In this document: one piece after another, positions 32,394-49,965 of the stretch
Layout of the letters: every line of letters starts with the position of its first letter
How positions within the stretch are numbered: position 1 is the first letter of the stretch
IMG/VR virus record: IMGVR_UViG_3300015371_000002
Coordinates: 1 to 64,000 of that record
Length of the DNA: 64,000 bases
Origin: a virus
Strand: one strand, 5' to 3'
Made by a program: the position numbers and the translations under genes
The notes under the pieces: model-generated
Told to the model about the DNA's origin: nothing
The model's database searches: none
The model's input: the letters and a program-made list of their open reading frames with translations, nothing else

Positions 32394-33011
32394 TCAGATA
32401 GGAAGGTCGCGATACGGCGCTAGCATGCTGGTGACATCGGCGGGCATTGCCGCATCGGATCCGGGCACGGTGCCCACCCAATACGACACATTGTAAACCC
32501 CCGGCACCTCTTCACTGCGGATCGATGGATCACGCAGCGCCGATGTTTGGCGGTAACGCATCAGTTGCAGACAGGCACGTTCCAAATCGTAGGGCAGTTC
32601 GCCGAGCAATTGATAACCAGCCTGATAGTTAACGACAATCTCGCCGGTCCATCGACCGAAGTTACGATAGAGCAGACCCTTGTTTGCATCCAAGCGATAG
32701 TCGGTGGTTGCGAGCGATTGGGTAGAACATGAAACGCTATCGATGATAGCGACTGGATAGCGTGACAATGATAACCCACCGATATGGCCGCTGTATCCGC
32801 ATTCGAATGTCTCGCTGACCTTTTCGCGGCCGAGCACGCGATTGACCTGCGAATTGATCAGTGAGGATGCTTCGTGAATCCAGACCGTTAGCTGATCGTC
32901 CTGCGATGTGTCGCCAACCGCAATCCCTAGTTCCATCTTGGCTCTGGCCAAAACGGTAAGATCTTGCGTATCGGCGACCTCGGTGATTTCCAGGCTTTGG
33001 CTGTATGTCAT
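32394..33011 (-). CDS. head-tail connector (gp6-like adaptor)
   Basis: DLTVLARAKMELGI...LSRYPV...YQAGY...LPYDLERAC...LAPYR. Confidence 0.85.
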   Translation of the reverse strand: MTYSQSLEITEVADTQDLTVLARAKMELGIAVGDTSQDDQLTVWIHEASSLINSQVNRVLGREKVSETFECGYSGHIGGLSLSRYPVAIIDSVSCSTQSLATTDYRLDANKGLLYRNFGRWTGEIVVNYQAGYQLLGELPYDLERACLQLMRYRQTSALRDPSIRSEEVPGVYNVSYWVGTVPGSDAAMPADVTSMLAPYRDLPI

Positions 33012-35833
33012 GCCAATTCTCGCTCCCCCGCCTGCCCTGAATACCTGCGATTGGTTGGCGAGGCCACGTCACCTCCTGTCCGTGCTAGGGCGCCGCCACG
33101 GCCAGCTCTGGCCCAAGGTAGGCTGGGCGGGATGATGTGCGGATTACCCAGCAGCGCGCCGCCGCCATCGAACGTGGTCCGCGTCGCTGACGGATGCCAG
33201 GAGCCAGCGCCGACAGCCTCGCTCTCGCCAACCAGTTCGGCGGCAGTTGCCAACCGCTGCACCGGTGCGGGGACAACCATCGCGTCAGCGACCAGCGTGC
33301 CTGCGCCACTCATGCGCTGAACCGGAGTGCCGGTTGCTTCGCCAGCACCGTCTAGCTCAACGGCGGCTGCTCGACGGACAACGTTATTCGCGGTCAACGA
33401 ACTATTGGCAGCGACTGTCGCGGATCCTGCCGCGATTAGCTTGGCGCTAGCCGTGACCGTCCCGGTTCCCGCCTCTACGCCGTCGGCGAATTGTGCCGGC
33501 ATACCGGTGCCGACGACCGCACCGCTACCGGCGAGTATGGCGGTTGCGGCGTCGATCGTATTGAGCTGATCGGCCGACAGTGTGCCAAGCCCCAAGAGCG
33601 TCGCGGCGCCTGCCGGGGCATTCGAAGCTGCGTCAGCAACGAAGCTGGCCGCACCGGAAAACAAAGCCGCGCCGGATGGCGCGTGAGTAGGTCCAGCCGT
33701 GATTATGCCGACGCCGTCCAAAGTTACTGTCGCCGAGACCGAATGGTCAGCGGCTGCGGTTAGCTGTCCGACGCCATCGATGGTCCCTGTGGCGGCAGCG
33801 CACATGACTGGCGTAGGCGTTATGCTTCCCGTGCCATTCAGGGCCGCGGTCACCGCTTCGGCTTGAACCGGGGTGACGTTGACTGACCCATGGCCGTGGA
33901 ACGTTGATGCCCCGCTGGCTATGCCCGCCGTCGCGGCTTCGGCATCGAATGTGCCCTGGCCGTCGAGCGTGGCAGAGGCAGTCGGGATATGCATGCCGGC
34001 GGCCGACAGAGCTCCAGCACCAGCCAAAGTCGCAGCGCCGAGCTCCCGCTGGACAAGCGCAGCAGTCAGTATGCCGACACCAGGTAAAGTGGCCGTTGCC
34101 GCTGGGGTGTGCGTCCCGGCCGGTATCAATGCACCAACGCCCGGCAACGTCGCGGCGCCAAGCTCAACCTGTGTGGCGGAGACCCCGAAGTTGCCGCTAC
34201 CCGCGATGGTCGCTGCACCGGATGGGGCGTGCTGGCTATCCGCGGTTACGGCGCCTGCACCAGCGAGCGTCCTGGTGGCAAGCTGCCGCTGAATGGGCGA
34301 CGCCGTTACCGACCCTGCGCCGGGAAGCGTCGAAGTCGCGATCTGCCGCTGAACCGCCGATGCTGTCAGTCCGCCTGCGCCATTCAGCTGCGCCGTGGCG
34401 CAGACAGCCGGGGCCGAAATCAATGAACCCAGACCGGGGAAGGTTGCGGTGGCGATGTCTGCTTGGACCGGCGCCGCCGTCAGGCCACCAGAACCAGCAA
34501 ATGTCGCGGTGGCGAGTAGTCTGGCAACCGGGCTTGCCAAAGGTGTGGCGATGCCCGGCAGTGCGGCACTGGCGAGGAGAACTTGTTTGGCGCTGACCGT
34601 GAGCTGGCCGACGCCCGGCTCGGTCGCGGTTCCGACCTCCCGCATGATGGTTGTCGCGACAACGGTGCCTGCCCCAGCTTCGGTTGCGGAACCAGTTTGT
34701 GTGCCGCCGCCCGCCGTATAGGTGGTGACGATGATGCCCTGAGCTCCAGAGGCGCCGCCACTGCTGTGACCGCCGCCGCCGCCGCCATACAATCCGCCGA
34801 CGTTTGCTGTGCCTGAACCGCCTAAAATCCCATCGCCGCCGCCGCCGCCGCCAGCCCCAGCGGTTGCCCCGCCAGCGGTCTGGGTCCAGGACGCGATGCC
34901 GGTGCCGCCCTTGCCGGCCGCATTTCCGAAATTGCCGCCGCCGCCACCACCACCGGTCCCATCCGTCGCGTCGGCGCTGGCGGTCCCATGACCGGTGCCG
35001 TTAAACCCGTCGCCGCCGTTCCCCCCAGTGAACCCGGCGCCATCCGAGCCAGCAGTCGACGATCCGCCGCCTGCACCGCCGCCGCCGCCGCCGTTGTTGG
35101 ACACATTGGCGCCGCCAGTCTTGCCTGTGCCATCCGGCCCAGCGGCACCGCCACCGCCACTGCAACCGCCGTTATCGGTGTTGCAGGTCTTGCCGTCGCC
35201 GCCGGAATACGCCCCCAACGTCGGCACGCAGGACGCCGCCTGACCGCCTTGGCCGCCGATGCCGGAAGGACCGGTGGCACCCGCCTTGGCGAGCAACACG
35301 CTGGTCGAGACGAACATCGTATCGACCGCAGTCGTGCCGATCGTGTAGGTGGCACTGCCGCTTGGGGTCAGCGAGACGTTCAGCGCCTTGGCGTAAGCGC
35401 CGCCACCGCCACCGCCACCGCCGCCGTTGCTGCCGATATCATGGCCGCCGGTGCCGCCAGCGCCGATCGCCTCGACCGTGTTGTTGCCGCTGTTCCAGTC
35501 GCTCGGCACCGACCATGTCGCATTGGTGCCGGGCGTGGTGACGAACGTCGTGGTTGCGGCAACCCAAGGGACGATACCGTCCCACCACCAAGTGCTCGGA
35601 CAATCCTTGAGTTGGCCAGGCCAGCCGCAAATTCCCTGGCCCCACTCGTCGGCTTCGGTGACAGTGGCGATAACCGTATAGCTGCTGATCTGTCCCGGGA
35701 TCGGCTGCGGACAGCCGCCCTCGGTCCGGATCCGCCGCATCGTCTGCCAGTCCGCGATGGCGATCTCGCGGTAGGTCGGGAGACGCAGAAAGAGGAGTGG
35801 TGCGTGGCGGAGAAACCCCGCTAGACGGGCCAC
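33008..35833 (-). CDS. Gly-rich domain plus ~26 x 20-aa repeat fibre/scaffold protein
   Basis: WNSGNNTVEAIGAGG Gly-rich domain followed by xxA[TS]ATLxGxGxLTAxxxxx repeats. Confidence 0.8.
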   Translation of the reverse strand: MARLAGFLRHAPLLFLRLPTYREIAIADWQTMRRIRTEGGCPQPIPGQISSYTVIATVTEADEWGQGICGWPGQLKDCPSTWWWDGIVPWVAATTTFVTTPGTNATWSVPSDWNSGNNTVEAIGAGGTGGHDIGSNGGGGGGGGGAYAKALNVSLTPSGSATYTIGTTAVDTMFVSTSVLLAKAGATGPSGIGGQGGQAASCVPTLGAYSGGDGKTCNTDNGGCSGGGGAAGPDGTGKTGGANVSNNGGGGGGAGGGSSTAGSDGAGFTGGNGGDGFNGTGHGTASADATDGTGGGGGGGNFGNAAGKGGTGIASWTQTAGGATAGAGGGGGGDGILGGSGTANVGGLYGGGGGGHSSGGASGAQGIIVTTYTAGGGTQTGSATEAGAGTVVATTIMREVGTATEPGVGQLTVSAKQVLLASAALPGIATPLASPVARLLATATFAGSGGLTAAPVQADIATATFPGLGSLISAPAVCATAQLNGAGGLTASAVQRQIATSTLPGAGSVTASPIQRQLATRTLAGAGAVTADSQHAPSGAATIAGSGNFGVSATQVELGAATLPGVGALIPAGTHTPAATATLPGVGILTAALVQRELGAATLAGAGALSAAGMHIPTASATLDGQGTFDAEAATAGIASGASTFHGHGSVNVTPVQAEAVTAALNGTGSITPTPVMCAAATGTIDGVGQLTAAADHSVSATVTLDGVGIITAGPTHAPSGAALFSGAASFVADAASNAPAGAATLLGLGTLSADQLNTIDAATAILAGSGAVVGTGMPAQFADGVEAGTGTVTASAKLIAAGSATVAANSSLTANNVVRRAAAVELDGAGEATGTPVQRMSGAGTLVADAMVVPAPVQRLATAAELVGESEAVGAGSWHPSATRTTFDGGGALLGNPHIIPPSLPWARAGRGGALARTGGDVASPTNRRYSGQAGERELA

Positions 35834-35834
35834 A

Positions 35835-36293
35835 TCAGGACAACGTCGCCAGGAACGCGTCGATCGCGGCTAGCACCGTCGGCACCTGCGCCGCGGTGAC
35901 CGTCGTCCACACGAGGCCTTCCGCCGGATCCCAGTGTCGATCGGCGAGAAAGCCTCCTGAGCCCGTGGGATACTGCGCGGCGATCGTCGACAACATGGTT
36001 TGCACCGCAGCATTCGTATTGGTGAAATCCGTGCCGCTGAACGTCACTCCCGGGGTTTGCTGTTGTGCCCAAGTAATAATCGCGTTCGACAAGGTCGGGG
36101 TGGCAGTGCAGATAGCATAGATGGCGTTGTATTGCCGACAGTCCTGCGCGAGTTGCAGAAACCATTGCAGACTGCACGATCCGGCGGTGGTCAATTGTTT
36201 AATGTTCAGACAGTCGGACCGCAGCGTGACGATCGCGTTCCACAGCCTGTCGTAATCGTTGATGACGGGTGAACCGCTTACCGGCAGCGTCAT
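35835..36293 (-). CDS. helical protein, paralogue of 42300..42761
   Basis: Shared C-terminus YPxxxxGxLxDR...GxVWxxxTxAQxPxVLxAIxAFLA. Confidence 0.75.
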   Translation of the reverse strand: MTLPVSGSPVINDYDRLWNAIVTLRSDCLNIKQLTTAGSCSLQWFLQLAQDCRQYNAIYAICTATPTLSNAIITWAQQQTPGVTFSGTDFTNTNAAVQTMLSTIAAQYPTGSGGFLADRHWDPAEGLVWTTVTAAQVPTVLAAIDAFLATLS

Positions 36294-36305
36294 AGCCAAC
36301 CCCCT

Positions 36306-39300
36306 TTACGTAACGCCGACGGCGAGACCGCTATAGCGACGTGGCGCTGCGAGTGCTGTTCCACCGGGACCGCGGGCGTGGGCGGCTCCAGGGGGTGGTC
36401 GTTCCAGAGCGGGTGGAATGACGTGTGGCGTCGCGTTGATCGTCGCCGCACCGCCGAATGTCGTGCGCGTGGCGGATGGATGCCAAGAGCCAGCGCCTTC
36501 CGCGGTGCCGACCGCGTCGATCTGCGCCGACGATGCCCAATTCTGATCCGGCGTTCCATCGGCGAGGCCATCACCCGGAAGCAATGCCCCAGCGACCTGG
36601 CGCTGCACCGGTGTTATCGTCTCGGTGCCAACACCGTCTATTTGTGCGGTCGCTGCCCGGCGGATGACGCCGGCGCTAACCGTAAGTGAGCCTGAGCCCC
36701 CAAGTGTCGCCGATACTGCGGCGGTGAGCTTGCCGGTAGCGGTAACAGATCCGATGCCCGCTATCGTCCCATCGCCGAATTGGCAGGGAATACCGTCGCC
36801 AGTGACGGTGCCGACGCCCGCAACAGTAGCGCTACTCGCGGCAATAATATTGAGACTGGTTGCTGTGAGTGAGCCAGCGCCGGAAATACTAGCGGTGCAT
36901 GTGCTAGCTCTTGCCGGAACTGCGGTGAGGCTGCCAACGCCGTCGATTGTCGTGGCGCTATAGGTAATGCGCAGACCGTCAGTCGCGAGCGTGCCCAAAG
37001 CTGAGACGGTTACCGCACCGAGCAGACGCGCCAGCTCGGTTGCGGTCAGTGTGCTGTCGCCGGCGAGGCTGACATTCCCTGCCAAACGCTGGATTGGATT
37101 GGCGATGGTCAGCGAGCCAAGTCCAGTGAGTGTGGCGGCGCCGTTCTGCACACCGGCCTGGGTGGCATCGGCGATGATGGTGCCAACGGCGGTCAGCGCG
37201 GTCGAGGCGACGAGCCGACCGACGATATTTGCGGTCAGGCTACCGATGCCCGGTTCTGTCGCCGAGGTAACCAACTGGCCGACTTCGGCTGAAGTTGGCT
37301 GGCCAACGCCGGAAAGTGCGGCACTTCCAGCCGCTATTAGCACCGCTGTGGCACTAAGTGAGCCGGACCCACCGAAGGTTGCGGCGCCGCTCTGCACCCC
37401 AGCGGTTGCGGCATCGGCTGTAAAGCTGCCGACACCGGCAATTGTGGCGCTGGCTGACGGTGTATGCGTGGCGTTGCCGACCAGATTGCCCACGCCCGGA
37501 AGGACTGCGCTGGCGAGGACAGCCTGAGTTGTAGCGGCCGTCAGCGTTCCGACGCCGTCAATCTGCGCGGTGCCTGCGGGCGTGTGTGATGCGTTTGCGG
37601 TGAGCGAGCCTGCGCCACCGATCAGCGCGCTGGCGAGATCCGCCTGGACCGGCGTGGCGATAATGCTACCAACGCCCGGCAATATGCCTGACGCAAGCTC
37701 CCGCTGAACTTCGGCGGTGACGATGGTGCCGCTGCCAGGGAGCGTTGCGGTGGCGAGTTCAATCTGAATGGGGCTGGCGGATAGTGTGCCAACACCAGTG
37801 AGGGTGGCGCTGCCGTCCTGCTTGCCTGCGACGAATGGGTTGGCGACCAGGGCACCAACGCCTGGTAGCGTCGCGCTGTTGGTCCGCCAGATCTGTGCCG
37901 CGGTAGCGTTTAGGCTGCCGATGCCAGCTTCGCTGGCTTGTCCGCTCGGAGAATGCTGCCCATCCGCCTGCAGCGCGCCGACACCGGCAAGCGCCGCGGT
38001 ATCCAGCAGACCGGCGACGGGCTGCGATGTGAGTTGTCCGACACCAGGAAGCGTGGCGGTTGCCAATTCGACCTGGGTCGCGCTGGCCGTTAGGTTTCCG
38101 CTACCCGCGATGGTCGCCGCACCCGATGGGGTGTGCGTGGCATCGGCAATGAATGCGCCGATCCCACCGAGGGTGGCTGAGGCTGCCTGATATTCGATCG
38201 TTGTTGCGGTAAGGCTACCGACGCCGCTCAGCGTATCGGAAGCAGATGGGTTGTGAGTGCCGGCGGCGCTCAGGAAGCCAGTGCCAGAGAGCGTCGCGGT
38301 ATCGAGTTGCAGCTGAACGGCAGTGGCGGATAGTCCGCCGGCACCCGTCATGGTCGCGGCGGCAAGCGGCGTATGCGCGCCGTCGGCAATTACCCCACCG
38401 ACGCCAGGAAGCAGCGCCTCGCCGAACTGCTTGCCCGCGACACTAGGCGTTGCGTTTATCTGGCCATCGCCAGACAACGTGGCAGAGCCGGATGGCGTAT
38501 GCGTCGCGTCCACGGTCAGTGAGCCGACGCCCGCTTCGGTCGCCGTGGCGATCTGCGCCTGGACAGCGGTTGAGGTTAGATTGCCGACGCCGGGGAATAG
38601 TGCTGCCGCCGACGGCGTATGTAGGCCGTCAGCCGAGAGGCCTCCTGCGCCTCCTAGAGTTGCGGTCGCGACCTCCCGCTGCACTTCCGTCGTAGTGAGC
38701 GAGCCCACGCCCGCGAATGCCGCGGTGGCCGCTGGCGTGTGACTGGCGTTGCCTGCAACCGACCCAATGCCGGGCAGAGTGGCGGAGGCCAGCTCATACT
38801 GGATTGCCGTGCTGGTAAGGGAGCCGACCCCGGTCAGCGTATCGCTGGCCAGCTGGTATTGGATTGCGTTGGCGGTAAGCGACCCTGATCCCGCAATGGT
38901 GGCGGCACCAGAAGGCGTATGCAGCCCGGATCCAGTAAGGCCACCAACGCCATCCAACTGAACCGAGACGACATCCCGCAGCACGGGCGATGCGGTAAGC
39001 GATCCAGAACCGGCGAACGTCGCCGCTCCGACCGGTGTGTGTGCGCCGTTGCCAGATAGGGCGCCGACACCAGGAAGTGTGGCGGTGGCAATGTGGAGAT
39101 CGACGCCCGTCGCGGTCAGACTGCCGACGCCGGCCTCGGTTGCGACAGCAAGCTGAAGCTCGACGGCCGCTGCGGTTATTCCACCGGCACCTGCGAGTGT
39201 TGCCGACCCTGTCCAGGTGGTCGGGCCAGTGGCGGGGACTTGGCCATCGGCGACTAGCCCGCCTTGCCCAGCGAAAGTCCACGAGCCCGGGTTAGGATAT

Positions 39301-40097
39301 GCATCGAAGTCCCCGGCGCCTGCTAGCGTGGCAGACGCTGCGAGGACTTGCGTGTTGGTTGCCGTCAGAGAGCCAGCGCCAGGAAGGGTGCTGGATGCCG
39401 ACCATAGCGGCACCCAAGTCAGAACAATTAGGCCATCAGATCCCAAGCCGCCCGCAATGGTTGTCCCAGCATGCGAACCGCCGCCACCGCCGCCGTAGGC
39501 ACCGCCCGTTCCCCGGGCACCGCCTGACGCCGTGGCGCCGCCGCCACCCGAACCGACGCCGTGGGTGCCGTCCCATTGGGTGCCAGCTCGACCGTTAACC
39601 CCGCCAGCGACAGATGCGGTGGTGCCCGCGCCAGAGCCGTTGCCTGCCGCACCACCTCCAGCTGTCGCTGTGCCGCCAGCGGCCGTCGGGCCACCCGCAC
39701 CCCCGCCGCCGCCACCTGGGCTGCTGGAGGTGCCTGGTGCGAAACCACCACCGCCAGCAAACCGGGTGGCGCCGGTCGAATTGGCCGTCGCCCCGCCCGT
39801 TCCAGCGAGCGCGGTGGTTGCATTGACGCCTTCATCGGCGATGACAAAGGTGCCGAACGCCGTTGCCACAGCACCTGCCGCCGCGCCAACCGTAACGGCG
39901 ACCGGGAACGAAGCAATGGTGACGCCGGTCGATCCAGCATATGAGCCAGCGCCACCGCCCGGTCCGCCGCGTGTGGTTGAGCGACGCGACGCGCCAGCGC
40001 CACCCGAACCCACCGCCTCGACCGTATTGGCAGTATTGTTCCAGTTGCCAGGATCAACGAACGATGTTGCGCCGGTTAGGATAAACTGCTGGGCCAA
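36306..40097 (-). CDS. Gly-rich domain plus ~49 x 20-aa repeat fibre/scaffold protein
   Basis: TTG start after AAGGA; WNNTANTVEAVGSGG domain; repeats counted by eye; C-terminus homologous to 33008..35833. Confidence 0.85.
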   Translation of the reverse strand: MAQQFILTGATSFVDPGNWNNTANTVEAVGSGGAGASRRSTTRGGPGGGAGSYAGSTGVTIASFPVAVTVGAAAGAVATAFGTFVIADEGVNATTALAGTGGATANSTGATRFAGGGGFAPGTSSSPGGGGGGAGGPTAAGGTATAGGGAAGNGSGAGTTASVAGGVNGRAGTQWDGTHGVGSGGGGATASGGARGTGGAYGGGGGGSHAGTTIAGGLGSDGLIVLTWVPLWSASSTLPGAGSLTATNTQVLAASATLAGAGDFDAYPNPGSWTFAGQGGLVADGQVPATGPTTWTGSATLAGAGGITAAAVELQLAVATEAGVGSLTATGVDLHIATATLPGVGALSGNGAHTPVGAATFAGSGSLTASPVLRDVVSVQLDGVGGLTGSGLHTPSGAATIAGSGSLTANAIQYQLASDTLTGVGSLTSTAIQYELASATLPGIGSVAGNASHTPAATAAFAGVGSLTTTEVQREVATATLGGAGGLSADGLHTPSAAALFPGVGNLTSTAVQAQIATATEAGVGSLTVDATHTPSGSATLSGDGQINATPSVAGKQFGEALLPGVGGVIADGAHTPLAAATMTGAGGLSATAVQLQLDTATLSGTGFLSAAGTHNPSASDTLSGVGSLTATTIEYQAASATLGGIGAFIADATHTPSGAATIAGSGNLTASATQVELATATLPGVGQLTSQPVAGLLDTAALAGVGALQADGQHSPSGQASEAGIGSLNATAAQIWRTNSATLPGVGALVANPFVAGKQDGSATLTGVGTLSASPIQIELATATLPGSGTIVTAEVQRELASGILPGVGSIIATPVQADLASALIGGAGSLTANASHTPAGTAQIDGVGTLTAATTQAVLASAVLPGVGNLVGNATHTPSASATIAGVGSFTADAATAGVQSGAATFGGSGSLSATAVLIAAGSAALSGVGQPTSAEVGQLVTSATEPGIGSLTANIVGRLVASTALTAVGTIIADATQAGVQNGAATLTGLGSLTIANPIQRLAGNVSLAGDSTLTATELARLLGAVTVSALGTLATDGLRITYSATTIDGVGSLTAVPARASTCTASISGAGSLTATSLNIIAASSATVAGVGTVTGDGIPCQFGDGTIAGIGSVTATGKLTAAVSATLGGSGSLTVSAGVIRRAATAQIDGVGTETITPVQRQVAGALLPGDGLADGTPDQNWASSAQIDAVGTAEGAGSWHPSATRTTFGGAATINATPHVIPPALERPPPGAAHARGPGGTALAAPRRYSGLAVGVT

Positions 40098-42299: not shown

Positions 42300-42761
42300 T
42301 CAATTCATCGCCGCGAGGAACGCGCTAATCGCGGGCAGCACGTTCGGCAGCTGCGCGGTGGTTAAGTTGACCCAGACAATCCCCTGGGTGCCGGAGAACG
42401 TCCGGTCGAGCAGCCGACCCGATCCATCACGCGGGTAGTCTGTCCCGATCGCGGTCAGGATGTTGCCGCAGAGCGTGTTTAGATTCGTATACTCTGCCGT
42501 GACGCTCAGAGCCGATGCTCCAGCGAGCTGGGCCTGAACGTAAGGGATGAGCTGAGCCAATAGCGCGGAATTCCCGGAGATCACTGAGAAGTCCGCACGA
42601 TAGCTTATGCACGCCTGCCCCAGGTTTATCACGTTGTATGCTGGCGTGCCGACAGCGGCGCCGGCCTGGATCTCCAGTGCGGGCGTCTTGACGTTCGCCA
42701 GCTCGGCTTGAACCCGATCGAACGTCGCTTCAACGAGTGGCGCGGTCAGCGGATATGCCAC
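42300..42761 (-). CDS. helical protein, paralogue of 35835..36293
   Basis: Shared C-terminal motif; AGGAGA SD. Confidence 0.75.
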   Translation of the reverse strand: MAYPLTAPLVEATFDRVQAELANVKTPALEIQAGAAVGTPAYNVINLGQACISYRADFSVISGNSALLAQLIPYVQAQLAGASALSVTAEYTNLNTLCGNILTAIGTDYPRDGSGRLLDRTFSGTQGIVWVNLTTAQLPNVLPAISAFLAAMN

Positions 42762-42770
42762 TTGGGTCTC

Positions 42771-43916
42771 CTACATTGCGCTGAAGCCGGACGGCGGCGA
42801 ATAAACCCACGTGGCGGATGACGGATACATGTCGACTGAATTCTGGCCGCCTTGAATCGACGCGGCGACCGATACCCCACCGCTTCGTAGGTTCGGCGGA
42901 ATATCCAATCCTCCTTGGGCACTGGATGGGTCTTGCGTATTGCCGTCGTGCGGTGCCCAATCTCCGCCGTCGAGGCGGCACCACCACTTCCAGTTATTAC
43001 AATCGATGGCAATGCTGACGACGCTGTTCTCGGCGGGCGGCGCCACTTCGGTGAAGTATGTCGTTAGGCCGTTGTAGAAGTCGTAACCAGTGCCGTCCCA
43101 ATTGTCTTTCAGCGCCCATGAATTCTCATCGACACCAAGGTCGTCAGCTTTATTGATCGATGGGTTGGCGATCCCGTAGGCCTGGTCGGCAGCACGTTCA
43201 ATGGAAAACAACTCGACATACCAACGGCCAGACGATTTGAACTTATTGCCGGTGGTCGCTACCCAGGCTACGTCAAATTCAGCGAAGCCGTTGGCGAACG
43301 TGAGATTGCCGTTGGATCGGACAACATTGGGGCCACTTGCCCAGGTCATGATAGTGCCGCCGCCAATGCTGACATTGCCGTTGGCCGTCAGGGCCCCCGC
43401 ACCACCGATAGTGCGCGTTGCCCGCATCCGCTGGCGAGCCGTGGGAACCAGTAATCCAGATCCAGCCAGTTGCTGCGAACTAACCAGCCGTCGCACTGGC
43501 GTTGGCACCACCAGACCGCTGCCTGCCGGGAAGGCAAAGACAGAAGTGCCTTGCCTAAACGTGCCGCTGAACGATCCGCCACCCGCTCCGGCTAGGGTGG
43601 CGACCGCGCCGATCAGCTGCGGCCCCGGCAAGTGCGCCTCTGCGACGAAGCGTCCTGCCCCACGCATGAAGATATTGCCAACCACGTTGGCCGGCTGAAA
43701 TACCGTGACCACCCGAAGCGCCAGGTTCTGGTCGATCCACAATCTCCCAACCGGCAGGCCAGCAGGTGAGCGAGGCAGTAAAGATAAATCGGTGGTCTCC
43801 AACGAAATCGACACCAGCGCGTCGCGCACGTCTTGCTCGTTGATCGAATGCGGCAGCTGGCCGCTGGCGAACAGGCTGTTAATCAGTTCATCGACGGTGC
43901 GGACGGTGTCGACCAT
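42771..43916 (-). CDS. adaptor domain plus ~5 repeats plus SPRY/B30.2-like domain
   Basis: SNGNLT...KSSGRWYVE...VVSIAIDCNNWKWW...YSPPSGFSAM. Confidence 0.75.
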   Translation of the reverse strand: MVDTVRTVDELINSLFASGQLPHSINEQDVRDALVSISLETTDLSLLPRSPAGLPVGRLWIDQNLALRVVTVFQPANVVGNIFMRGAGRFVAEAHLPGPQLIGAVATLAGAGGGSFSGTFRQGTSVFAFPAGSGLVVPTPVRRLVSSQQLAGSGLLVPTARQRMRATRTIGGAGALTANGNVSIGGGTIMTWASGPNVVRSNGNLTFANGFAEFDVAWVATTGNKFKSSGRWYVELFSIERAADQAYGIANPSINKADDLGVDENSWALKDNWDGTGYDFYNGLTTYFTEVAPPAENSVVSIAIDCNNWKWWCRLDGGDWAPHDGNTQDPSSAQGGLDIPPNLRSGGVSVAASIQGGQNSVDMYPSSATWVYSPPSGFSAM

Positions 43917-44962
43917 TAGAACGGTCTTGTCGACCACATGTTAATTGAGTCGATGTGCGCGCCTTTTGGCAGACCTGCCGGATTGACTGTCGTGGTGCTG
44001 GGACCAAAGTTGGTCTGGCAATACATTTTCAGATAGCGCGATACCCCATCGGAGTATGGGCCACCGGGATTGCCAAAATTGCCCACCTGTTGTCGGTCCC
44101 TATAGATGCGAACAGCCGACGGCGTCCATTCTAACCCGTAGGAATGCTGCACGCTGGCATCCCATCCGCCATTGCTGTCGTAACTCACGTCTATCGAGGC
44201 GTCATAGGCGAACTGCTGGACCATCTGCACGTTTGCATCGTCGGTCCAGATACGCACGGGGCAAATAGCGGACCAGGCGAATGGCGGCGGCGTTATCCAA
44301 GCGATCTCATAGAACAGCCCAGGGTATCGGTCGACGGCAATGGCTATTTCCACGTAGCCTTGGTATTGCGAGAAGTTGTTGGGCGCATTGAATGTATCTG
44401 TCATCCCACTAGTGAGTGACTTGCCACCAGATGGCGCGTCGATGATATTGAGGTTTAGCCGTCCGCCAGTGAACGTGAAGATCTGCGGTGTAAGGGACGG
44501 ATCATCCGACCAGAATGCGTCGCCGCCCTCGTCAAAGCTATCGTATGCCCACTTGTTCGCATCATGTGAGTTGAAGTTATCCGAAAAGGTCGTTCCCTGG
44601 CTCGGCGGGCTGGGCGTGAATACCGTTGCATTGGCACCGAATGTGCCGCGACCGAGGTATTGCGTCCTGGCGAGCATGCGTTGGCGTGGTGTTGTGACCG
44701 CAAGTGCGGCGTTGCCAGCGCCACGATAATTACCTAGCCGTGTTCCCGGGCCGCCACCCAGCGACATTTGCAGCACATCGCCGTTCAGCCACAGGAAGCC
44801 CGGCTGCACATTGGCAGGCGTCGCTGGCAGTCCAGTGAATAATCCAGTTGAGGGATGAAGCGACTGGATCATGTCTTGAAAGTAGACTGGGGTTATGGCC
44901 TTCGGTGGCAGCCCCTCGCGGAACATCTGCAGCAGTTCATCAACCGTGCGGTTCGTTGCCAT
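43916..44962 (-). CDS. adaptor domain plus 2 repeats plus degenerate GH16-like domain
   Basis: FSDNFN...YQGYVEI...HSYGLEWTPSAVRIYRD; no ExDxxE motif. Confidence 0.7.
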   Translation of the reverse strand: MATNRTVDELLQMFREGLPPKAITPVYFQDMIQSLHPSTGLFTGLPATPANVQPGFLWLNGDVLQMSLGGGPGTRLGNYRGAGNAALAVTTPRQRMLARTQYLGRGTFGANATVFTPSPPSQGTTFSDNFNSHDANKWAYDSFDEGGDAFWSDDPSLTPQIFTFTGGRLNLNIIDAPSGGKSLTSGMTDTFNAPNNFSQYQGYVEIAIAVDRYPGLFYEIAWITPPPFAWSAICPVRIWTDDANVQMVQQFAYDASIDVSYDSNGGWDASVQHSYGLEWTPSAVRIYRDRQQVGNFGNPGGPYSDGVSRYLKMYCQTNFGPSTTTVNPAGLPKGAHIDSINMWSTRPF

Positions 44963-45324
44963 CAGATGTTCACCTTCACCACACCAGCGCTATCCACCCA
45001 TACTCGGCCAGTAGGCAATCCGCTGGTGGAGCGCGGCAGACGGGAGAAGTCGGCGGTTTGCAACGCCAATGAGATGACGGTATCTCGACAGTCTTTGGCA
45101 TTGAGTTGGTTCAATCCCTGACCATCCGCCCAAATCACCGTCAGCAACTCCGTCAAGCTGCGCAGCGTAGTGCCGGTATCCGGCGCTGGCGGTGCGCCCG
45201 GCTCGGTAATGACAAATGAGCGGAGCAGCGAGCCATAGGCATTGTTCGACGTCGCGGTGATGTCGAGCCCATAGCTTCCAGGAAGCAGCGGCTGTGTGGT
45301 GAACAGGCGATAGGTAAAGCTCAC
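44962..45324 (-). CDS. small protein consisting mainly of the adaptor domain
   Basis: LRSLTELL...CRDTVISL...LPRSTSGLPTGRVWVD. Confidence 0.7.
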   Translation of the reverse strand: MSFTYRLFTTQPLLPGSYGLDITATSNNAYGSLLRSFVITEPGAPPAPDTGTTLRSLTELLTVIWADGQGLNQLNAKDCRDTVISLALQTADFSRLPRSTSGLPTGRVWVDSAGVVKVNI

Positions 45325-47687
45325 GGCGGCAGCGGAACGCCGACGCGGACGTTGTTTGCGTCAGTCCTCTGCCACACCGTCATGGAATAGACGACCATAG
45401 GATTCTCAAGGTTGGTGCCGACCAGCAATCGACGATGGTGCTGGTCTATGGGGCTCCACGGCGGATCGCCAGGGTCCTGCGCCTTGTTGCCGCCAGTGTA
45501 GGGCGTCCATGTGTATGTCAGGCCGACCTGGACGTTGTCGAAGTAGTTTTTGATGTAACCTTGCGTGCTATTGGTGGCTGGAACCCATAGCCAGCCGTAT
45601 TTATGCCGCCCAGAGAAGTCGGCCTGATTGGCAATATGCACGTTACTGTCTAGGCCAAGCGCGGTGTTATTGAAACGATCCGCTGGGCTCTCAGCATTTG
45701 ACCAGTGGATGATGCCTGCGGAATAGTCGTTGTTAGACGCAGGCAGGAACTCAGCGGCATCGAATTCAACGTGCTGATCTTGCGGCAAGTTGTTGCTGAA
45801 GCCGTTAGCAGCTCCTTCCAGCGCTTCCGACCACCATGCTGGCCAACCCGATTCAGCCGGCTGACGCCAACCAATGATGTCGTTGAAGATCGACATCTCA
45901 ATCTCGAAATAGCCGCCACCACCGAACGCCGTTCCGAACCAATTGCCGTTGCCTTGTGTCCACCCAGGCCCAAAGTGGTAGTTGAAACGATAATTCCCGT
46001 CGGTCGGCCCATTGTCGCGGATGGAGCCATCGCCCTGCTGCACGACGCCGGGGCTGATCACGAATTGATTCTGCCCGATCGTCACGTTCGGCCCCTGTGT
46101 TCGCAGAGTGTAGCCAACAGCCGCGGCCTGCGGCGGCGCGCTGCCAGGCTGCGAAGTGACTGGCCTGACTTGTATTGCAGCGGTCGCCGGCCCGGATCCT
46201 GCGCTATTGGTTGCATATACCCGAGTCGAGTATGTCGTGTTGGTGGTCAGGTTCGGGATATTTACCGAGGCGAGCGGAGTAGATGTCGGACCGGCCCAAG
46301 CGACGCTGCCGCCATTTGACCCGAGATTCCCCGTCGGGGTGTAGCTATACCATTGACCGCCGACGTTGACGTGCCAAATCACGCCATTGACCATTATGAC
46401 GGTTGGCGAATTCCAGCCGCCTGTCCAGATGCCATTGACCATGACCGCATTCGGCTGGCCACCAGAGGTTGGCACAATCGTCCAGGTATTGCCGAATGCG
46501 TCGACCACGCTGCCAGTGCTGGGCGTGCAATAAGGCGTCGTTGGCCCATTGTCAGTAAAGGTTCCGGACGTGGTATATTGCAGCTGGTATCTGCCTTGAT
46601 CGAGCGCCCCGCCAGAAGTCGGCGGATCCCAGCCAACAATTGCCGAATTTGTCGCGACGCTGATCGCCCGAAAATTCGTTGGAACCCCGGGCAATGGGGC
46701 GGCGGCCTGCAGCGTCGCAACGTTTACCGGAGCGCTGGTTGTTCCCGTTCCCACACTATTGGTGGCAAAGCCGCGGAGATTGTAGGTCGTCGCGGCGACC
46801 AGTCCAGCAATCGTCTGCCTGTATGGTGTTCCAGTAGTATCACGCGTCCAGGTTGGCGGAAGGCCGCCCGGCGAACGAAACCAGACATTGAACGTGTCCA
46901 AGGTCCATATCAGGGCCCCGCTGCGAACAATGTTCTGCACCGTCGATGATGTATCGACGAAGGTCCCGTTACCCACCGGATGGTTTTGCGCATCCAGCGT
47001 CCAGGTAACGCCGCTCGCATCGACGACTGAGCCGTGCCCGGACGTGCAGTATGTGACCGCTTGGGCATTCTGATACGTCGTAGCGGCGTTTGTCTTGTAT
47101 TGGATTTGGTGCAGACCGTTGTCCAAAGCGCCACCAGCAGTCGGCGGCGCCCACAAGACGTCGATCGTGGTGCTGGTCTGCAGCGGCGAGGAAATGGCGG
47201 TCAGCGGGCCTGGCACCACCGCCGCAGCCTGAACCGTTATCTGGAATGGCGCCGACAACGTCTGATTCTGGCTGGCGAGGTCCGTAGCTGTGATGGTTAT
47301 AGGATACGTCGTGCCATTGGTTAGGCTCGCGGCGACGAATAGATTGGAACCAGAAATCGAAAACCGACTATCGTTGACCGCTACCCCGCCACCAAATGCG
47401 GTTTGGTCCGACAAGACGACGGATATTGTGCCGATCAGCGTGCCGACCGTCGGATTGGGAGCCAAGGATTGATTGCTCAGCGAGATAGAGCTGATCGAAT
47501 ACGGGTCCCGCGTGGCGGTGACCGTGAAGGATCCAGCGAATGGCCCGCCCAAGGTAACCGTCCCAGAGAACGGCGTGCCATCACTGGTAGATATGGTGAT
47601 CTGACCCACCAATGTTCCGGGCGGCGCGCTCTGCGGCAGCTGCAGGTTAGACAGCGCGATGTTGGTGATCGTCTTGCTGCCCGACAT
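45321..47687 (-). CDS. Ig/cadherin-like plus 2 FN3 plus GH16-like virion appendage protein
   Basis: FN3 motifs (WAPP...GLVAATTYNLRGFATNSVG; NLTTNTTYSTRVYATNSAGSG); WPAWW...EFDAAEF. Confidence 0.8.
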   Translation of the reverse strand: MSGSKTITNIALSNLQLPQSAPPGTLVGQITISTSDGTPFSGTVTLGGPFAGSFTVTATRDPYSISSISLSNQSLAPNPTVGTLIGTISVVLSDQTAFGGGVAVNDSRFSISGSNLFVAASLTNGTTYPITITATDLASQNQTLSAPFQITVQAAAVVPGPLTAISSPLQTSTTIDVLWAPPTAGGALDNGLHQIQYKTNAATTYQNAQAVTYCTSGHGSVVDASGVTWTLDAQNHPVGNGTFVDTSSTVQNIVRSGALIWTLDTFNVWFRSPGGLPPTWTRDTTGTPYRQTIAGLVAATTYNLRGFATNSVGTGTTSAPVNVATLQAAAPLPGVPTNFRAISVATNSAIVGWDPPTSGGALDQGRYQLQYTTSGTFTDNGPTTPYCTPSTGSVVDAFGNTWTIVPTSGGQPNAVMVNGIWTGGWNSPTVIMVNGVIWHVNVGGQWYSYTPTGNLGSNGGSVAWAGPTSTPLASVNIPNLTTNTTYSTRVYATNSAGSGPATAAIQVRPVTSQPGSAPPQAAAVGYTLRTQGPNVTIGQNQFVISPGVVQQGDGSIRDNGPTDGNYRFNYHFGPGWTQGNGNWFGTAFGGGGYFEIEMSIFNDIIGWRQPAESGWPAWWSEALEGAANGFSNNLPQDQHVEFDAAEFLPASNNDYSAGIIHWSNAESPADRFNNTALGLDSNVHIANQADFSGRHKYGWLWVPATNSTQGYIKNYFDNVQVGLTYTWTPYTGGNKAQDPGDPPWSPIDQHHRRLLVGTNLENPMVVYSMTVWQRTDANNVRVGVPLPP

Positions 47688-48217
47688 CAGTGCGCCTTCA
47701 GTTTGGACGTCCGTGGATCAGGCGGCATCGGCCGCGGCGGACCTTCATCGCCGGGATTGTGACTAATGTCCCGACCAATCCGGATCGGCAGGTTGAGCGA
47801 CAGGAAGTAGGTATCGCCCGTCATGAGTTTGACGGGAGAGACATTCGCTTCCACAAAGTTGGAGCCGAACCACACACGATATCCGGCTACCGATAGAAGA
47901 TGCGGTGCGGTAAACCCGCACTGCGTCTCAGAGATGATTAAAATGCCACGATCATTGATGCGCACTTCTAGACCGACCGTCGTCGAGCCGCAGACATCAC
48001 CACGGGTGTCAAAGAACTCAACGTCTACCTCCGGCTTGCCGAGGAACGGACCGCTGCGATCCGACTCGGTCATCGGCACCGGAGCTATACGTTCGCCTAC
48101 GGTCCATTCCTGCAACTCGGCCCACAGCTGCTCAATCAGTTCCGCAGCATGCGGATATGGCACACGTATTTCTTCGACCGTATCGGCGATCACCGACGCG
48201 TCGAAGGATTGGGACAT
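47687..48217 (-). CDS. hypothetical protein
   Basis: 176 aa; C-terminal SVAGYRVW...LMTGDTYFL weakly resembles the 131-aa protein. Confidence 0.6.
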   Translation of the reverse strand: MSQSFDASVIADTVEEIRVPYPHAAELIEQLWAELQEWTVGERIAPVPMTESDRSGPFLGKPEVDVEFFDTRGDVCGSTTVGLEVRINDRGILIISETQCGFTAPHLLSVAGYRVWFGSNFVEANVSPVKLMTGDTYFLSLNLPIRIGRDISHNPGDEGPPRPMPPDPRTSKLKAH

Positions 48218-48912: not shown

Positions 48913-49438
48913 GGCCTTCACTCGCGGCCACTACATCCTCACAGAACCGATACAGGTCATCGTCCGTTCCGAACAGACGCGCAGCGTTCGCTTGTAGGGT
49001 AACTAGTCGAAGGTTGTCGATATCATAACGCTTCGTTTTATCGATGCGATCCACTGAGGCCGATTGTAGCGATGGCTCCCCTTTCCGTATTACCATTGGC
49101 CACCCAGTGAGGGCGCACATCCCGTCTTGTTGGAGCCACAACTCGCGAAGCTGAGCGGCAGTTATGGAACCTCCAGGACCGGGCTTGGTCCTTGGTTTGC
49201 CGTCATTGAAAGCTACGATTCTGCGAGTGGTCTTGCGCAGTCTCTGGGCTGTGCTGTGAGACCACACATAGAGCGCTCCGTCTATAGTGGTCGCCTGACG
49301 CTCTTTGCGTTGTCGCTTGACCTTTTCCTTATGGCGCTCGTGGTATCGCGCGACACGAACTCTAAGACACGGGACGCAATCGCCCCACGCATTGATGTTG
49401 TCGCTTCCGCACTTCGTGCATACCCTGATCTCAGCCAT
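48905..49438 (-). CDS. HNH-like endonuclease
   Basis: CTKC..CVPC finger; LRELWLQQDGMCALTG...SVDRIDKTKRYDIDNLRLVTLQAN; ATG 49438 after AGGAGA. Confidence 0.85.
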   Translation of the reverse strand: MAEIRVCTKCGSDNINAWGDCVPCLRVRVARYHERHKEKVKRQRKERQATTIDGALYVWSHSTAQRLRKTTRRIVAFNDGKPRTKPGPGGSITAAQLRELWLQQDGMCALTGWPMVIRKGEPSLQSASVDRIDKTKRYDIDNLRLVTLQANAARLFGTDDDLYRFCEDVVAASEGHE

Positions 49439-49440
49439 TT

Positions 49441-49542
49441 CAGATGTCTCCTCATCTGGTTGGTCAGAGAGGTCGGCGGCGGTTGCACGCCCCGGCCTCT
49501 CGCTCACATCAGTGTCATACTATACCACACTACATTGCACAA
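49441..49542 (-). promoter_or_regulatory. promoter plus structured leader of the HNH pair
   Basis: TTGTGC-N17-TATGAC (or TGnTATAGT); stem GAGAGGCCGG/CCGACCTCTC, CTGACCA, CAGATG-AGGAGA-CATCTG. Confidence 0.65.
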
Positions 49543-49569
49543 GCCCTTATATATCTGGCAGAATATTCG

Positions 49570-49965
49570 TTACGTAAGCGTGTGGACCAATGAACCCGCG
49601 TTAAAGACCAAGCTGTCCCCGACACCGAGCGTCCGGGCTGTTGCAAGCGTGCCGAACCACCACATGGTTCCATTCCCGGTTGTGCCGTGGTCCCAGACTT
49701 GCAACCCAGCGACGGTGCGAGCGCTGGAGAACGGCCCAAAAGTAAATGCTCCAGAGTTTGCAGCTGACATGCCAGCAGCAATGGCGGAGTTATAGACGAC
49801 GACCTGCCGGGTGACGCCTTCACCCGTCGCCATCTCACTGGCGGAAATGCTTGATGGTGTGCCAATCGACAGACCGACCGCTCGAGTAGATGGACGCGTT
49901 GGCGTGGCTCCGCCAAGATTCCAGTCGAGCAACGCCACAGCTGCCCCGGTGCTGATACCAGTCAT
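49570..49965 (-). CDS. small beta-rich virion structural protein (fibre-subunit-like family)
   Basis: LLDW...TRP...E...RQ...NSGAFTFG...TVAGLQVWDHGTTGNGTMWWFGTL...RTLGVGDSLVFNAGSL, a pattern widespread in phage structural regions. Confidence 0.75.
   Translation of the reverse strand: MTGISTGAAVALLDWNLGGATPTRPSTRAVGLSIGTPSSISASEMATGEGVTRQVVVYNSAIAAGMSAANSGAFTFGPFSSARTVAGLQVWDHGTTGNGTMWWFGTLATARTLGVGDSLVFNAGSLVHTLT

What the first reader, a model, noticed from the sequence alone, without database searches (positions are those of the whole stretch)
33008..49965. Candidate repeat-templated modular appendage system: one 20-aa repeat in seven virion proteins plus a small beta-rich subunit
Seen: a 20-aa unit xxA[ST]ATLxGxGxLTAxxxxx occurs ~49 times in 36306..40097, ~26 in 33008..35833, ~9 in the tail hub, ~5 in 42771..43916, 2 in 43916..44962, and once at the C-termini of 41570..42298 and the tail terminator. 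Single and double copies are too short for a self-folding solenoid. Inference: each repeat is a donor beta-strand that docks one copy of the 131-aa protein (49570..49965). The repeat proteins would then act as internal rulers for filaments of defined length tipped with Gly-rich, LamG, SPRY or GH16 domains. 47687..48217 may be a diverged subunit or chaperone.
Basis: partly seen in the sequence, partly recalled or inferred. Interest (0 to 1): 0.85.

Follow-up and report, generated by a model that had tools for sequence, protein, structure and literature searches.

The report
Bead-on-a-rope phage fibre system, greatly expanded
A 124-kb uncultivated phage encodes a small "bead" protein of a family already seen by cryo-EM to thread onto "rope" proteins, and its ropes carry far more docking repeats than any solved case, in at least four different virion proteins.

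Summary
The 20-aa repeat is real. A profile finds 44 units in the 1263-aa protein (36306-40097) and 21 in the 941-aa protein (33008-35833). The 1042-aa tail-hub-like protein has 8-9 diverged units and the 388-aa protein has 4-5. The two units in the 348-aa protein are marginal. The single units claimed in the 242-aa protein and the tail terminator cannot be told from chance.

The 131-aa protein is a clear member of Pfam PF23140 (GP4 fiber I gp80). In phages GP4, A1002 and Bas63, cryo-EM shows dimers of such proteins strung on a "rope" peptide that completes their open beta-sandwich.

Three results support it here:
- A predicted complex of four subunits with four repeats scored 0.64 against 0.00 for the best control. 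About two subunits sit on each repeat.
- Of 50 viral records holding the subunit, 40 hold rope repeats, including 9 of 9 near-complete records.
- The rope gene usually lies just downstream of the subunit gene.

The 176-aa protein shows no link to the subunit. What is new is the scale (about 45 and about 22 units, against 11 at most in solved cases), one bead shared by several ropes in a siphophage-type virion, and a repeat family with no Pfam match.

The parts
49570..49965 (-). 131-aa bead subunit, a PF23140 (GP4 gp80 fiber I) family member
   Evidence: Pfam E 2.2e-18, 67.3 bits against a cut-off of 27, profile positions 2-126 of 128. It is the only copy in the 124-kb genome. PDB 8jou_a matches at E 0.018. 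205 homologues were found; the 120 listed carry PF23140.
36306..40097 (-). Rope A, 1263 aa. Gly-rich N-terminal domain (~230 aa), 44-48 units of 20 aa (array about 36624-39401), and a ~85-aa C-terminal domain shared with rope B.
   Evidence: Residues 452-496 contact four subunits in the predicted complex.
33008..35833 (-). Rope B, 941 aa. Gly-rich N-terminal part, 21-26 units (array about 33275-34693), and a C-terminal domain like that of rope A.
   Evidence: BLASTP against rope A gives 38-39% identity, E 6e-73.
9763..12891 (-). 1042-aa tail-tip protein. N-terminal LamG domain, 8-9 diverged rope units (residues ~291-480, window ~11452-12021), and a C-terminal phrog_8917 domain.
   Evidence: PF13385 E 1.3e-7. 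phrog_8917 E 4.7e-81. Motif chain of 8, 0 of 2000 shuffles. BLASTP to rope A E 3e-5.
42771..43937 (-). 388-aa short fibre protein. Shared N-terminal ~75-aa domain, 4-5 rope units (residues ~86-190), and a C-terminal globular domain.
   Evidence: phmmer E 4.5e-4. Chain of 4, 0 of 2000 shuffles. BLASTP to ropes E 9e-6 to 5e-4. Weak SPRY-like PDB hit, E 0.08.
43916..44962 (-). 348-aa short fibre protein. Same N-terminal domain, 2 marginal rope units (residues ~78-120), and a C-terminal globular domain.
   Evidence: BLASTP to the 388-aa protein E 1.7e-6. Chain of 2, 67 of 2000 shuffles. Weak beta-glucanase PDB hit, E 0.059.
44962..45324 (-). 120-aa protein whose C-terminal half is the N-terminal domain of the 388-aa and 348-aa proteins (possible anchor module).
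   Evidence: 42% identity over 66 aa, E 4e-16.
42300..42761 (-). 153-aa protein, paralogue of 35835-36299. It lies directly downstream of a repeat-bearing gene and is a candidate assembly factor (inference only).
   Evidence: 30% identity, E 6e-22. No family match.
35835..36299 (-). 154-aa paralogue lying between rope A and rope B.
   Evidence: The Atlas search was uninformative.
41570..42298 (-). 242-aa protein with one repeat-like C-terminal stretch. Membership is not established.
   Evidence: The sequence resembles a unit of the 388-aa protein by eye. No statistical support.
47687..48217 (-). Not supported.
   Evidence: hhalign against the subunit profile gives probability 0.2%. AF2 pLDDT 43.5. 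Atlas best score 0.86, below the lead level.

Best explanation
This is a chain-like ('beads on a rope') fibre system of the kind solved in podophages GP4 and A1002 and myophage Bas63.

The 131-aa protein is the bead. It would form dimers whose open beta-sandwiches are completed by strands of a rope peptide. The 20-aa units are the docking sites. Each unit offers two short strands, the conserved A-[ST]-A-T-L and x-L-[TS]-A either side of the GxG turn, one for each monomer of a dimer. The variable last six residues act as a linker.

The same bead would coat rope segments in at least four virion proteins:
- two giant ropes of about 45 and about 22 units;
- the tail-tip protein, with 8-9 units between a LamG head and the hub domain;
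- a short fibre with 4-5 units.

Repeat number would set filament length. If packing matches A1002 (about 27 A per dimer), the giant ropes would be roughly 120-130 nm and 57-70 nm long. This figure is an inference.

Shown here: family membership, the repeat arrays, co-occurrence and gene adjacency. Predicted only: the docking and its stoichiometry. Inferred: dimerisation, full occupancy of the arrays, filament length, attachment site and a role in host adsorption.
For: 1. Family membership. PF23140 hit at E 2.2e-18, 67.3 bits against a cut-off of 27, covering nearly the whole profile.

2. Precedent. Solved members bind ropes by sheet augmentation or sandwich completion:
- A1002 has 11 dimers on nozzle-rope gp39, and GP4 has 5 dimers on a separately encoded rope (PMC13730344 sections 9 and 11).

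3. Predicted complex. Four subunits (66-row alignment) plus rope A residues 436-515 gave ipSAE 0.64, 0.58 and 0.66, against a best of 3 controls of 0.00.
- Calibration: this mark was reached by 58 of 80 solved complexes and by 2 of 110 mismatched pairs.
- The runs share at least 93% of their contacts, and partner pLDDT is at least 59.
- All four copies touch rope residues 452-496. One copy sits on 477-482 and the next on about 487.

4. The rope alone has no confident fold: AF2 pLDDT 53, pTM 0.36, with two strands per unit.

5. Co-occurrence.
- 40 of 50 gp80-selected viral records match a 400-aa rope query at E<=1e-3, including 9 of 9 records that are at least 90% complete.
- The same query hits only the two ropes and the 388-aa protein among 1429 ORFs of the own genome, and nothing in 50,697 phage records.
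- Among 49 records picked by a DNA motif rather than by the subunit, 21 have both families, 9 rope only, 3 subunit only and 16 neither (odds ratio 12.4, p 3.3e-4).

6. Synteny. In all 21 double-positive records the two genes are on one strand. In 20 of 21 the rope lies downstream within about 3.5 kb (read).

7. Dimer as the unit. 46 of the best 150 family representatives are 247-272 aa, and rows of this length show two matched stretches, that is, fused dimers.

8. Variable end domains. Rope homologues carry PF13385, PF00754, PF10988, PF13088, PF13472 and PF02018, as expected of receptor-binding fibres.
Against: - There is no experimental data for this phage, which is an uncultivated metagenomic record.
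- The complex score may reflect the model's memory of solved complexes (8JOU and others). It shows likeness, not binding. The calibration was made on single-chain pairs and holds only roughly here.
- Only 45 of the 80 rope residues supplied were placed with confidence.
- The rope repeats have no sequence similarity to any solved chain.
- One 99%-complete record (G095, 123,755 bp) has a 1130-aa rope-like ORF but no detectable PF23140 subunit, even at E<=10.
- 9 of 30 rope-positive motif-picked records lack the subunit. Eight of these nine are fragments, 6-71% complete.
- No Ig-like collar or other known anchor was found.
- Docking on the diverged units of the hub and the short fibres was not tested.
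Confidence: 0.7

Rival explanations
1. The repeat arrays fold by themselves into a beta-rich fibre, for example a trimeric beta-helix or a stacked beta-hairpin ribbon. The gp80-like protein would then be a separate small fibre or decoration protein that merely shares the module, or binds only a few units.
For: AF2 gives the rope alone a regular two-strand-per-unit beta-meander. Ala/Gly/Thr/Ser-rich 20-aa units are typical of beta-solenoids (general knowledge, recalled). G095 has a rope without a detectable subunit. PHROGs labels the subunit's nearest family 'head protein' (phrog_240, E 2.3e-5).
Against: The rope-alone model is of low confidence: pLDDT 53, with no residue at or above 70. The complex scored 0.64 against 0.00 for the controls, with the conserved repeat residues at the interface. 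Co-occurrence and adjacency are tight. One- to five-unit arrays in the short proteins could not form a solenoid. Homo-oligomers of the rope were not modelled, so this rival is not excluded.
Confidence: 0.15
2. The arrays are flexible, possibly glycosylated Ser/Thr/Ala/Gly-rich spacers that simply hold the end domains away from the virion. The subunit would not be threaded on them.
For: A block of glycosyltransferase, methyltransferase and sugar-epimerase genes lies next to the module at 50058-63171, and a GT4 gene (40097-41326, + strand) lies inside it. The units are rich in Thr and Ser.
Against: A plain linker would not keep a strict 20-aa period with conserved hydrophobic positions across dozens of diverged phages. 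It would not explain the gene pairing with PF23140 or the predicted interface. Glycosylation and bead binding are not mutually exclusive.
Confidence: 0.08
3. The repeats are a compositional artefact of GC-rich DNA, or the long ORFs are not genes.
For: GC is 64-68% across the ropes, and other frames there also hold long ORFs.
Against: The same frame and the same repeat are conserved in 40 of 50 related records and in 73 database proteins. The HMM E-value reaches 1e-157. Shuffles never reproduce the chains.
Confidence: 0.01

Closest known systems
Ralstonia podophage GP4 fiber I: gp80 dimers on a separate rope protein (PDB 8JOU; Zheng et al., J Mol Biol 2023). The paper is not held, so it is known here only through citing papers and the PDB hit.
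   Same: Same subunit family (PF23140 is named after gp80). The rope is encoded separately from the subunit. Dimers are strung along the rope.
   Different: GP4 is a podophage with 5 dimers per rope, anchored on a 15-mer Ig-like collar at the neck. Here the virion is siphophage-type, has about 45 and about 22 units on two ropes plus units inside a tail-tip protein and short fibres, and no collar was found. There is no sequence similarity between the ropes here and any solved chain.
Pseudomonas podophage A1002 chain-like fibre: gp40 and gp41 dimers on nozzle-rope gp39 (PMC13730344; abstract, sections 9 and 11, and passages read).
   Same: The rope is part of a larger structural protein, as in the hub and short fibres here. 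Each dimer forms an augmented beta-sheet with the rope. About 24-30 rope residues per dimer (331 or 268 residues for 11 dimers, my arithmetic), close to 20 here.
   Different: A1002 has 11 dimers and two different bead proteins. Here a single bead gene was detected, and the 176-aa candidate for a second bead is not supported.
Escherichia myophage Bas63 collar-whisker complex: gp5 dimers on the collar's N-terminal rope (PMC12609058; abstract and passages read).
   Same: Beads on a string, with the rope completing incomplete sandwiches of the monomers. The genes lie between the head and tail modules, as do ropes A and B here.
   Different: Only two dimers per rope, and the rope is a short N-terminal extension of an Ig-like collar protein.
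Anabaena myophage A-1(L) bead-chain neck fibre: gp82, gp81 and gp80 trimers (PMC10966104; passages read).
   Same: A long (~100 nm) beaded accessory fibre built from many copies of a small protein.
   Different: It has no rope. Trimers join head to tail, and the proteins are unrelated (its gp80 is not the PF23140 protein).
Donor-strand complementation in chaperone-usher pili (recalled general knowledge, not tested).
   Same: An incomplete beta-sandwich is completed by a strand from another chain.
   Different: In pili each subunit donates its own strand to the next. Here one long template would donate all the strands.

Membership tests
Pfam PF23140 (Gp80, podophage GP4 fiber I protein) | Whole-protein HMM score above the curated gathering cut-off, over most of the profile | tested here: met
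   67.3 bits against 27, E 2.2e-18, profile positions 2-126 of 128. 66.5 bits in the genome scan.
Pfam PF23140 (Gp80, podophage GP4 fiber I protein) | Fold like solved gp80 (incomplete beta-sandwich) | not tested
There is only a sequence hit to 8jou_a at E 0.018.
Chain-like (rope plus bead-dimer) phage fibre | A rope segment with serial docking sites, encoded in the same phage | tested here: met
   Period-20 arrays in four proteins. 40 of 50 subunit-bearing records hold such arrays.
Chain-like (rope plus bead-dimer) phage fibre | Rope strands complete or augment the subunit's beta-sheet | tested here: inconclusive
   Prediction only: ipSAE 0.64 against a best control of 0.00. The mark was reached by 58 of 80 solved complexes and by 2 of 110 mismatched pairs. 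Rope residues 452-496 contact all four copies.
Chain-like (rope plus bead-dimer) phage fibre | Subunits act as dimers | tested here: inconclusive
   About two copies per 20-aa unit in the model. 46 of the best 150 family representatives have tandem two-domain length, 247-272 aa. Dimerisation of this protein was not modelled separately.
Chain-like (rope plus bead-dimer) phage fibre | Rope anchored to a collar, nozzle or other virion part | tested here: not met
   No Ig-like collar or nozzle homologue among the small neighbouring proteins. The hub protein carries its own anchor domain (phrog_8917). The anchor of ropes A and B is unknown. Their C-terminal ~85 aa is conserved only in the closest relative found.
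Chain-like (rope plus bead-dimer) phage fibre | Presence of beads and ropes in the virion | not testable with these tools
   The phage is an uncultivated metagenomic record.

The most novel reading that the evidence does not exclude
One bead protein serves as a universal cladding for several different 'strings' in one siphophage-type virion. These are two giant ropes, a tail-tip protein and short fibres, each ending in a different lectin- or enzyme-like domain. Filament lengths of roughly 120-130 nm and 60 nm would be written directly in repeat number. Because ropes A and B are encoded between the head genes and the head-tail adaptor, they may be long neck- or head-proximal filaments. The same bead family is present in Caulobacter jumbo phages. 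From memory only, relatives of those phages are known for a head filament whose composition I did not check. If so, this bead-and-rope module is a widespread, length-programmable appendage kit of uncultivated phages: 4,335 bead clusters at 50% identity, and open frames holding rope matches of up to 2571 aa.
Probability: 0.4. Interest if true: 0.75.

Novelty: new variant of a known kind. Interest (0 to 1): 0.55.

Why it matters
Rope-and-bead fibres were described only in 2023-2026, from four cultivated phages with 2 to 11 dimers per rope. This locus and its relatives suggest three extensions.
- The design scales about four-fold further than any solved case.
- It can be built into several virion proteins at once, including a siphophage-type tail-tip protein.
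- It is common in uncultivated phages. The subunit profile matches 4,335 representative clusters, and 40 of 50 sampled records hold ropes.

The work also yields a simple sequence signature for rope segments: a 20-aa unit, consensus LASATFAGAGSLSANATQTP, which matched no Pfam family. With it, many 'hypothetical' giant phage proteins could be annotated as fibre templates. It also gives a testable rule linking repeat number to fibre length, which would be useful for engineering phage reach and host-binding modules.

Tried and rejected
176-aa protein (47687-48217) as a second subunit:
- hhalign probability 0.2%.
- The single-sequence AF2 model was too poor to use (pLDDT 43.5), so no fold search was run.
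- Atlas best score 0.86, below the lead level.

153/154-aa paralogues: no family match and an uninformative Atlas search.

Searches for relatives and structures:
- Rope A against PDB sequences: only a chance hit at E 0.82.
- The search for related loci with the subunit in genome contigs: 555 pattern matches, none confirmed, so no prophage relatives were found in reference genomes.
- The search for related loci with the rope as a single protein: only 1 locus, on the contig of the closest relative. I therefore used a degenerate DNA motif scan instead.
- tblastn of the rope against 50,697 phage records: no match.

Repeat statistics:
- A broadened repeat HMM (three rounds, 298 units from 39 proteins) did not make the hub (E 0.2) or the 388-aa protein (E 0.061) formally significant.
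- Tandem Repeats Finder found no repeat at DNA level.

G095: hhalign of ten ORFs near its rope against the subunit profile gave probabilities of 0.8% or less. The 121-aa ORF just upstream looks subunit-like only by eye.

Not available:
- The GP4 paper (J Mol Biol 2023) is not held.
- Supplements of the A1002 and Bas63 papers were not consulted. They may give exact rope residue ranges per dimer, which would sharpen the stoichiometry comparison.

Full report
CONTEXT. The window is bases 1-64000 of a 124,250-bp IMG/VR virus record that CheckV estimates to be 92% complete. The genes of interest lie on the minus strand. Read from high to low coordinates:
- Just outside the window: large terminase, a capsid-protease fusion, portal, and a 909-aa collagen-like protein that runs into the window's last bases.
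- 63171-50058: a block of glycosyltransferase, methyltransferase and sugar-epimerase genes.
- 49965-33008: the region of the finding.
- Below that: head-tail adaptor (phrog_442), tail terminator (phrog_179, PF13554), a 431-aa protein, tail tube (PF18906), tape measure (PF06791), an 1880-aa protein, and a 1042-aa protein with an N-terminal LamG domain and a C-terminal phrog_8917 domain.

The gene set is that of a siphophage-type virion.

THE OBSERVATION. The 20-aa unit is plain in the translations.
- In the 1263-aa protein ('rope A') the xGxG core recurs every 20 residues.
- An HMM built from 33 phased units finds 44 units in rope A (E 6.8e-157) and 21 in the 941-aa protein ('rope B', E 4.5e-34), among 702 six-frame ORFs of the window. 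Spacings are mostly 19-22 residues.
- No other ORF reaches significance with that HMM. A broadened HMM (298 units from 39 proteins) ranks the 388-aa protein third (E 0.061) and the 1042-aa protein fourth (E 0.2) of 1429 genome ORFs.

Other tests support those two proteins.
- phmmer with 400 aa of rope A hits only rope A, rope B and the 388-aa protein (E 4.5e-4) among 1429 ORFs.
- BLASTP aligns rope A with residues 291-471 of the 1042-aa protein at E 3e-5.
- Chains of the GxG motif spaced 18-24 aa reach 8 in the 1042-aa protein and 4 in the 388-aa protein, with 0 of 2000 shuffles each. The chain is 2 in the 348-aa protein (67 of 2000 shuffles). It does not exceed 1 in the 242-aa protein and there is no motif hit at all in the terminator. 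The four control proteins each gave a chain of 1.

At DNA level there is no tandem repeat, so the arrays are old. The 'tail hub' lies outside the stated coordinates.

THE SMALL PROTEIN. The 131-aa protein matches Pfam PF23140, 'Podophage GP4 fiber I protein gp80', at E 2.2e-18. That is 67.3 bits against a cut-off of 27, over positions 2-126 of 128. It also matches PDB chain 8jou_a at E 0.018; that entry holds ten copies of the chain. It is the only copy in the genome. The family is large:
- 205 close homologues; the 120 listed carry PF23140.
- 4,335 representative clusters at E<=0.001 when searched with a 66-row profile.

WHAT THE FAMILY DOES.
- A1002 (PMC13730344; sections 9 and 11 and passages read). 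Gp80-like proteins of about 140-170 aa form dimers that attach in tandem to a 'rope'. [quoted passage not shown] A1002 has 11 dimers on nozzle-rope gp39. The same paper reports that GP4 has five dimers on a separately encoded rope protein, and that three dimers were resolved in VP1.
- Bas63 (PMC12609058; abstract and passages). [quoted passage not shown]

The GP4 paper itself is not held.

TESTS OF THE MECHANISM HERE.

(i) Predicted complex. I submitted four copies of the subunit (66-row alignment A1) with rope A residues 436-515, which is four units.
- ipSAE was 0.64, 0.58 and 0.66, against 0.00 for the best of three controls.
- That mark was reached by 58 of 80 solved complexes and by 2 of 110 mismatched pairs.
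- The runs share at least 93% of contacts, and partner pLDDT is at least 59.
- The tool warns that the calibration holds only roughly for this multi-copy job, and that a pass for a family with solved complexes may come from memory.
- All four copies touch rope residues 452-496, which gives about 11 rope residues per subunit. One copy sits on 477-482 (the conserved A-T-A-T-L-G) and the next on about 487 (the conserved L-S-A).
- The subunit side of the interface (residues 2-4, 75-90, 103-131) includes many of the family's invariant or nearly invariant positions, among them L107, T109, G116, D117, L119, G124 and L126.
- For comparison, A1002 uses about 24-30 rope residues per dimer. This is my arithmetic from the residue ranges.

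(ii) The rope alone. AF2 on five units with a 20-row alignment gives pLDDT 53 and pTM 0.36, with no residue at or above 70 and two strands per unit. There is no confident autonomous fold. Rope homo-oligomers were not modelled.

(iii) Co-occurrence, starting from the subunit. Of 61 viral-contig loci with a subunit relative, 50 were searched as whole records; the other 11 were left out because of a size limit.
- 40 of 50 match the 400-aa rope query at E<=1e-3, and 9 of 9 records that are at least 90% complete do so.
- The ten without a match are all incomplete records (5-43% complete, 4-23 kb).

(iv) Co-occurrence, starting from the rope. A degenerate DNA motif for the repeat core picked 119 stretches, of which 80 were listed. 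I searched 50 loci: the 11 with two or more matches on contigs not already in the subunit-selected set, plus 39 of the single-match loci on such contigs. 49 were held.
- 30 are rope-positive and 24 subunit-positive.
- 21 have both, 9 rope only, 3 subunit only and 16 neither. The odds ratio is 12.4 and Fisher p is 3.3e-4.

(v) Synteny. In all 21 double-positive records the two genes share a strand. In 20 of 21 the rope lies downstream within about 3.5 kb (read). In the window the subunit gene precedes all the repeat-bearing genes on the same strand.

(vi) The dimer as the unit. 46 of the best 150 representatives are 247-272 aa, and rows of this length show two matched stretches, that is, fused dimers.

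(vii) Fibre context.
- Rope homologues (73 at E<=1e-3; every name given by a source is 'hypothetical protein' apart from one that repeats a domain name) carry variable end domains: PF13385, PF00754, PF10988, PF09423, PF13088, PF13472 and PF02018.
- In a 112.8-kb relative the subunit-rope pair sits after a baseplate-wedge gene and tail-fibre genes, and before an endolysin-like gene. The pair is therefore a mobile fibre module used in different tail types.

RESULTS AGAINST THE READING.
- G095 (123,755 bp, 99% complete) has a 1130-aa rope-like ORF just after its head genes but no PF23140 or A1 match, even at E<=10. A 121-aa ORF directly upstream looks subunit-like only by eye (hhalign probability 0.8%).
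- Eight further rope-positive records, all fragments, lack the subunit.
- The ropes match no solved chain by sequence.
- No collar-like anchor was found.
- The 176-aa protein is not a detectable subunit.

ANATOMY AND INFERRED WORKING.
- Ropes A and B: a Gly-rich N-terminal domain, the repeat array, and a shared ~85-aa C-terminal domain.
- 1042-aa protein: LamG domain, 8-9 units, then the hub-type domain.
- 388-aa and 348-aa proteins: a shared ~75-aa N-terminal domain, units, then a globular C-terminal domain. The shared domain is also the C-terminal half of the 120-aa protein. The C-terminal domains have only weak SPRY-like and GH16-like hits (E 0.08 and 0.059).
- Paralogous 153- and 154-aa proteins follow the 388-aa gene and rope A respectively. 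They may be assembly factors; this is inference only.

I infer that bead dimers coat each rope segment and turn a flexible peptide into a beaded filament whose length follows unit number. At A1002's roughly 27 A per dimer (300 A for 11 dimers), 44-48 units would give about 120-130 nm and 21-26 units about 57-70 nm. The attachment sites of ropes A and B are unknown. Their gene position between the head and adaptor genes resembles that of neck fibres such as the Bas63 whiskers.

COMPARISON AND NOVELTY. The subunit is a member of PF23140. The system works like the GP4, A1002 and Bas63 chain-like fibres. It differs in four ways:
- Scale: about 45 and about 22 units, against 2, 5 and 11 dimers in the solved cases.
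- One bead gene serves ropes in at least four proteins, including a tail-tip protein.
- The virion is siphophage-type.
- The 20-aa repeat family matched no Pfam family.

My literature searches found rope-and-bead fibres only in the four phages above. They found no description of such long arrays or of this repeat. Those searches cover open-access text only.

VERDICT. This is a new variant of a known kind. Confidence in the bead-on-rope reading is 0.7, and interest is 0.55.

Noticed in passing
window 50058-63171 (minus strand) and 40097-41326 (plus strand): A block of sugar-modifying genes sits between the portal-side genes and the fibre module. It holds a GT9-like glycosyltransferase (PF01075), several methyltransferases, a nucleotide-sugar epimerase (phrog_540) and a sialyltransferase-like protein (phrog_4603). 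A GT4 glycosyltransferase (PF12000, E 8e-55) lies on the opposite strand inside the fibre module. This may mean virion or fibre glycosylation.
   Followed up: no
window 45321-47687 (residues 510-787), 30042-31337 (residues 155-430), 13331-18973 (residues 1053-1326): A ~275-aa domain occurs three times at 45-57% identity. It is at the C-terminus of an FN3-bearing 788-aa protein, at the C-terminus of a 431-aa protein oddly placed between the terminator and tube genes, and inside the 1880-aa tail protein. It has no Pfam or PDB match.
   Followed up: partly
window 48253-48921 and 48905-49507 (minus strand): Two paralogous 222- and 200-aa proteins (35-40% identity, E 1e-20) with CxxC pairs lie between the subunit gene and the rest of the fibre module. 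They have no Pfam match. They look like nuclease or zinc-ribbon inserts by eye only.
   Followed up: no
G000 63171-65900 (L002:171-2900, minus strand), overlapping the window's last 830 bases: A 909-aa protein with collagen triple-helix repeats (PF01391, E 3.9e-22) lies directly after the portal gene. The capsid gene is a protease-capsid fusion of 836 aa (PF04586 plus PF05065).
   Followed up: no
L185 (G095:54000-68000), ORFs 6668-7033 and 7937-11329: A 99%-complete 123.8-kb phage has a 1130-aa rope-like protein right after its head genes (lambda D-like and E-like) but no detectable PF23140 subunit. A 121-aa ORF just upstream resembles the subunit only by eye.
   Followed up: partly
L003 (Caulobacter phage CcrBL9) 20001-20396 and 22088-22459; L004 (Roseobacter phage CRP-4) 2050-2442 and 2447-3208: Caulobacter jumbo phages carry two gp80-like paralogues just after the capsid genes. 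In CRP-4 the gp80-like gene is followed by a 253-aa protein with a different short repeat, possibly a rope of another sequence family.
   Followed up: partly
P0199-P0348 (family representatives): 46 of the best 150 PF23140-like representatives have the length of tandem two-domain proteins (247-272 aa). One 482-aa protein carries the domain at its N-terminus followed by about 350 further residues.
   Followed up: no
window 19842-21575 (plus strand): A 577-aa HNH endonuclease (phrog_559, E 1e-30) is encoded on the opposite strand between the tape-measure gene and the 1880-aa tail gene.
   Followed up: no
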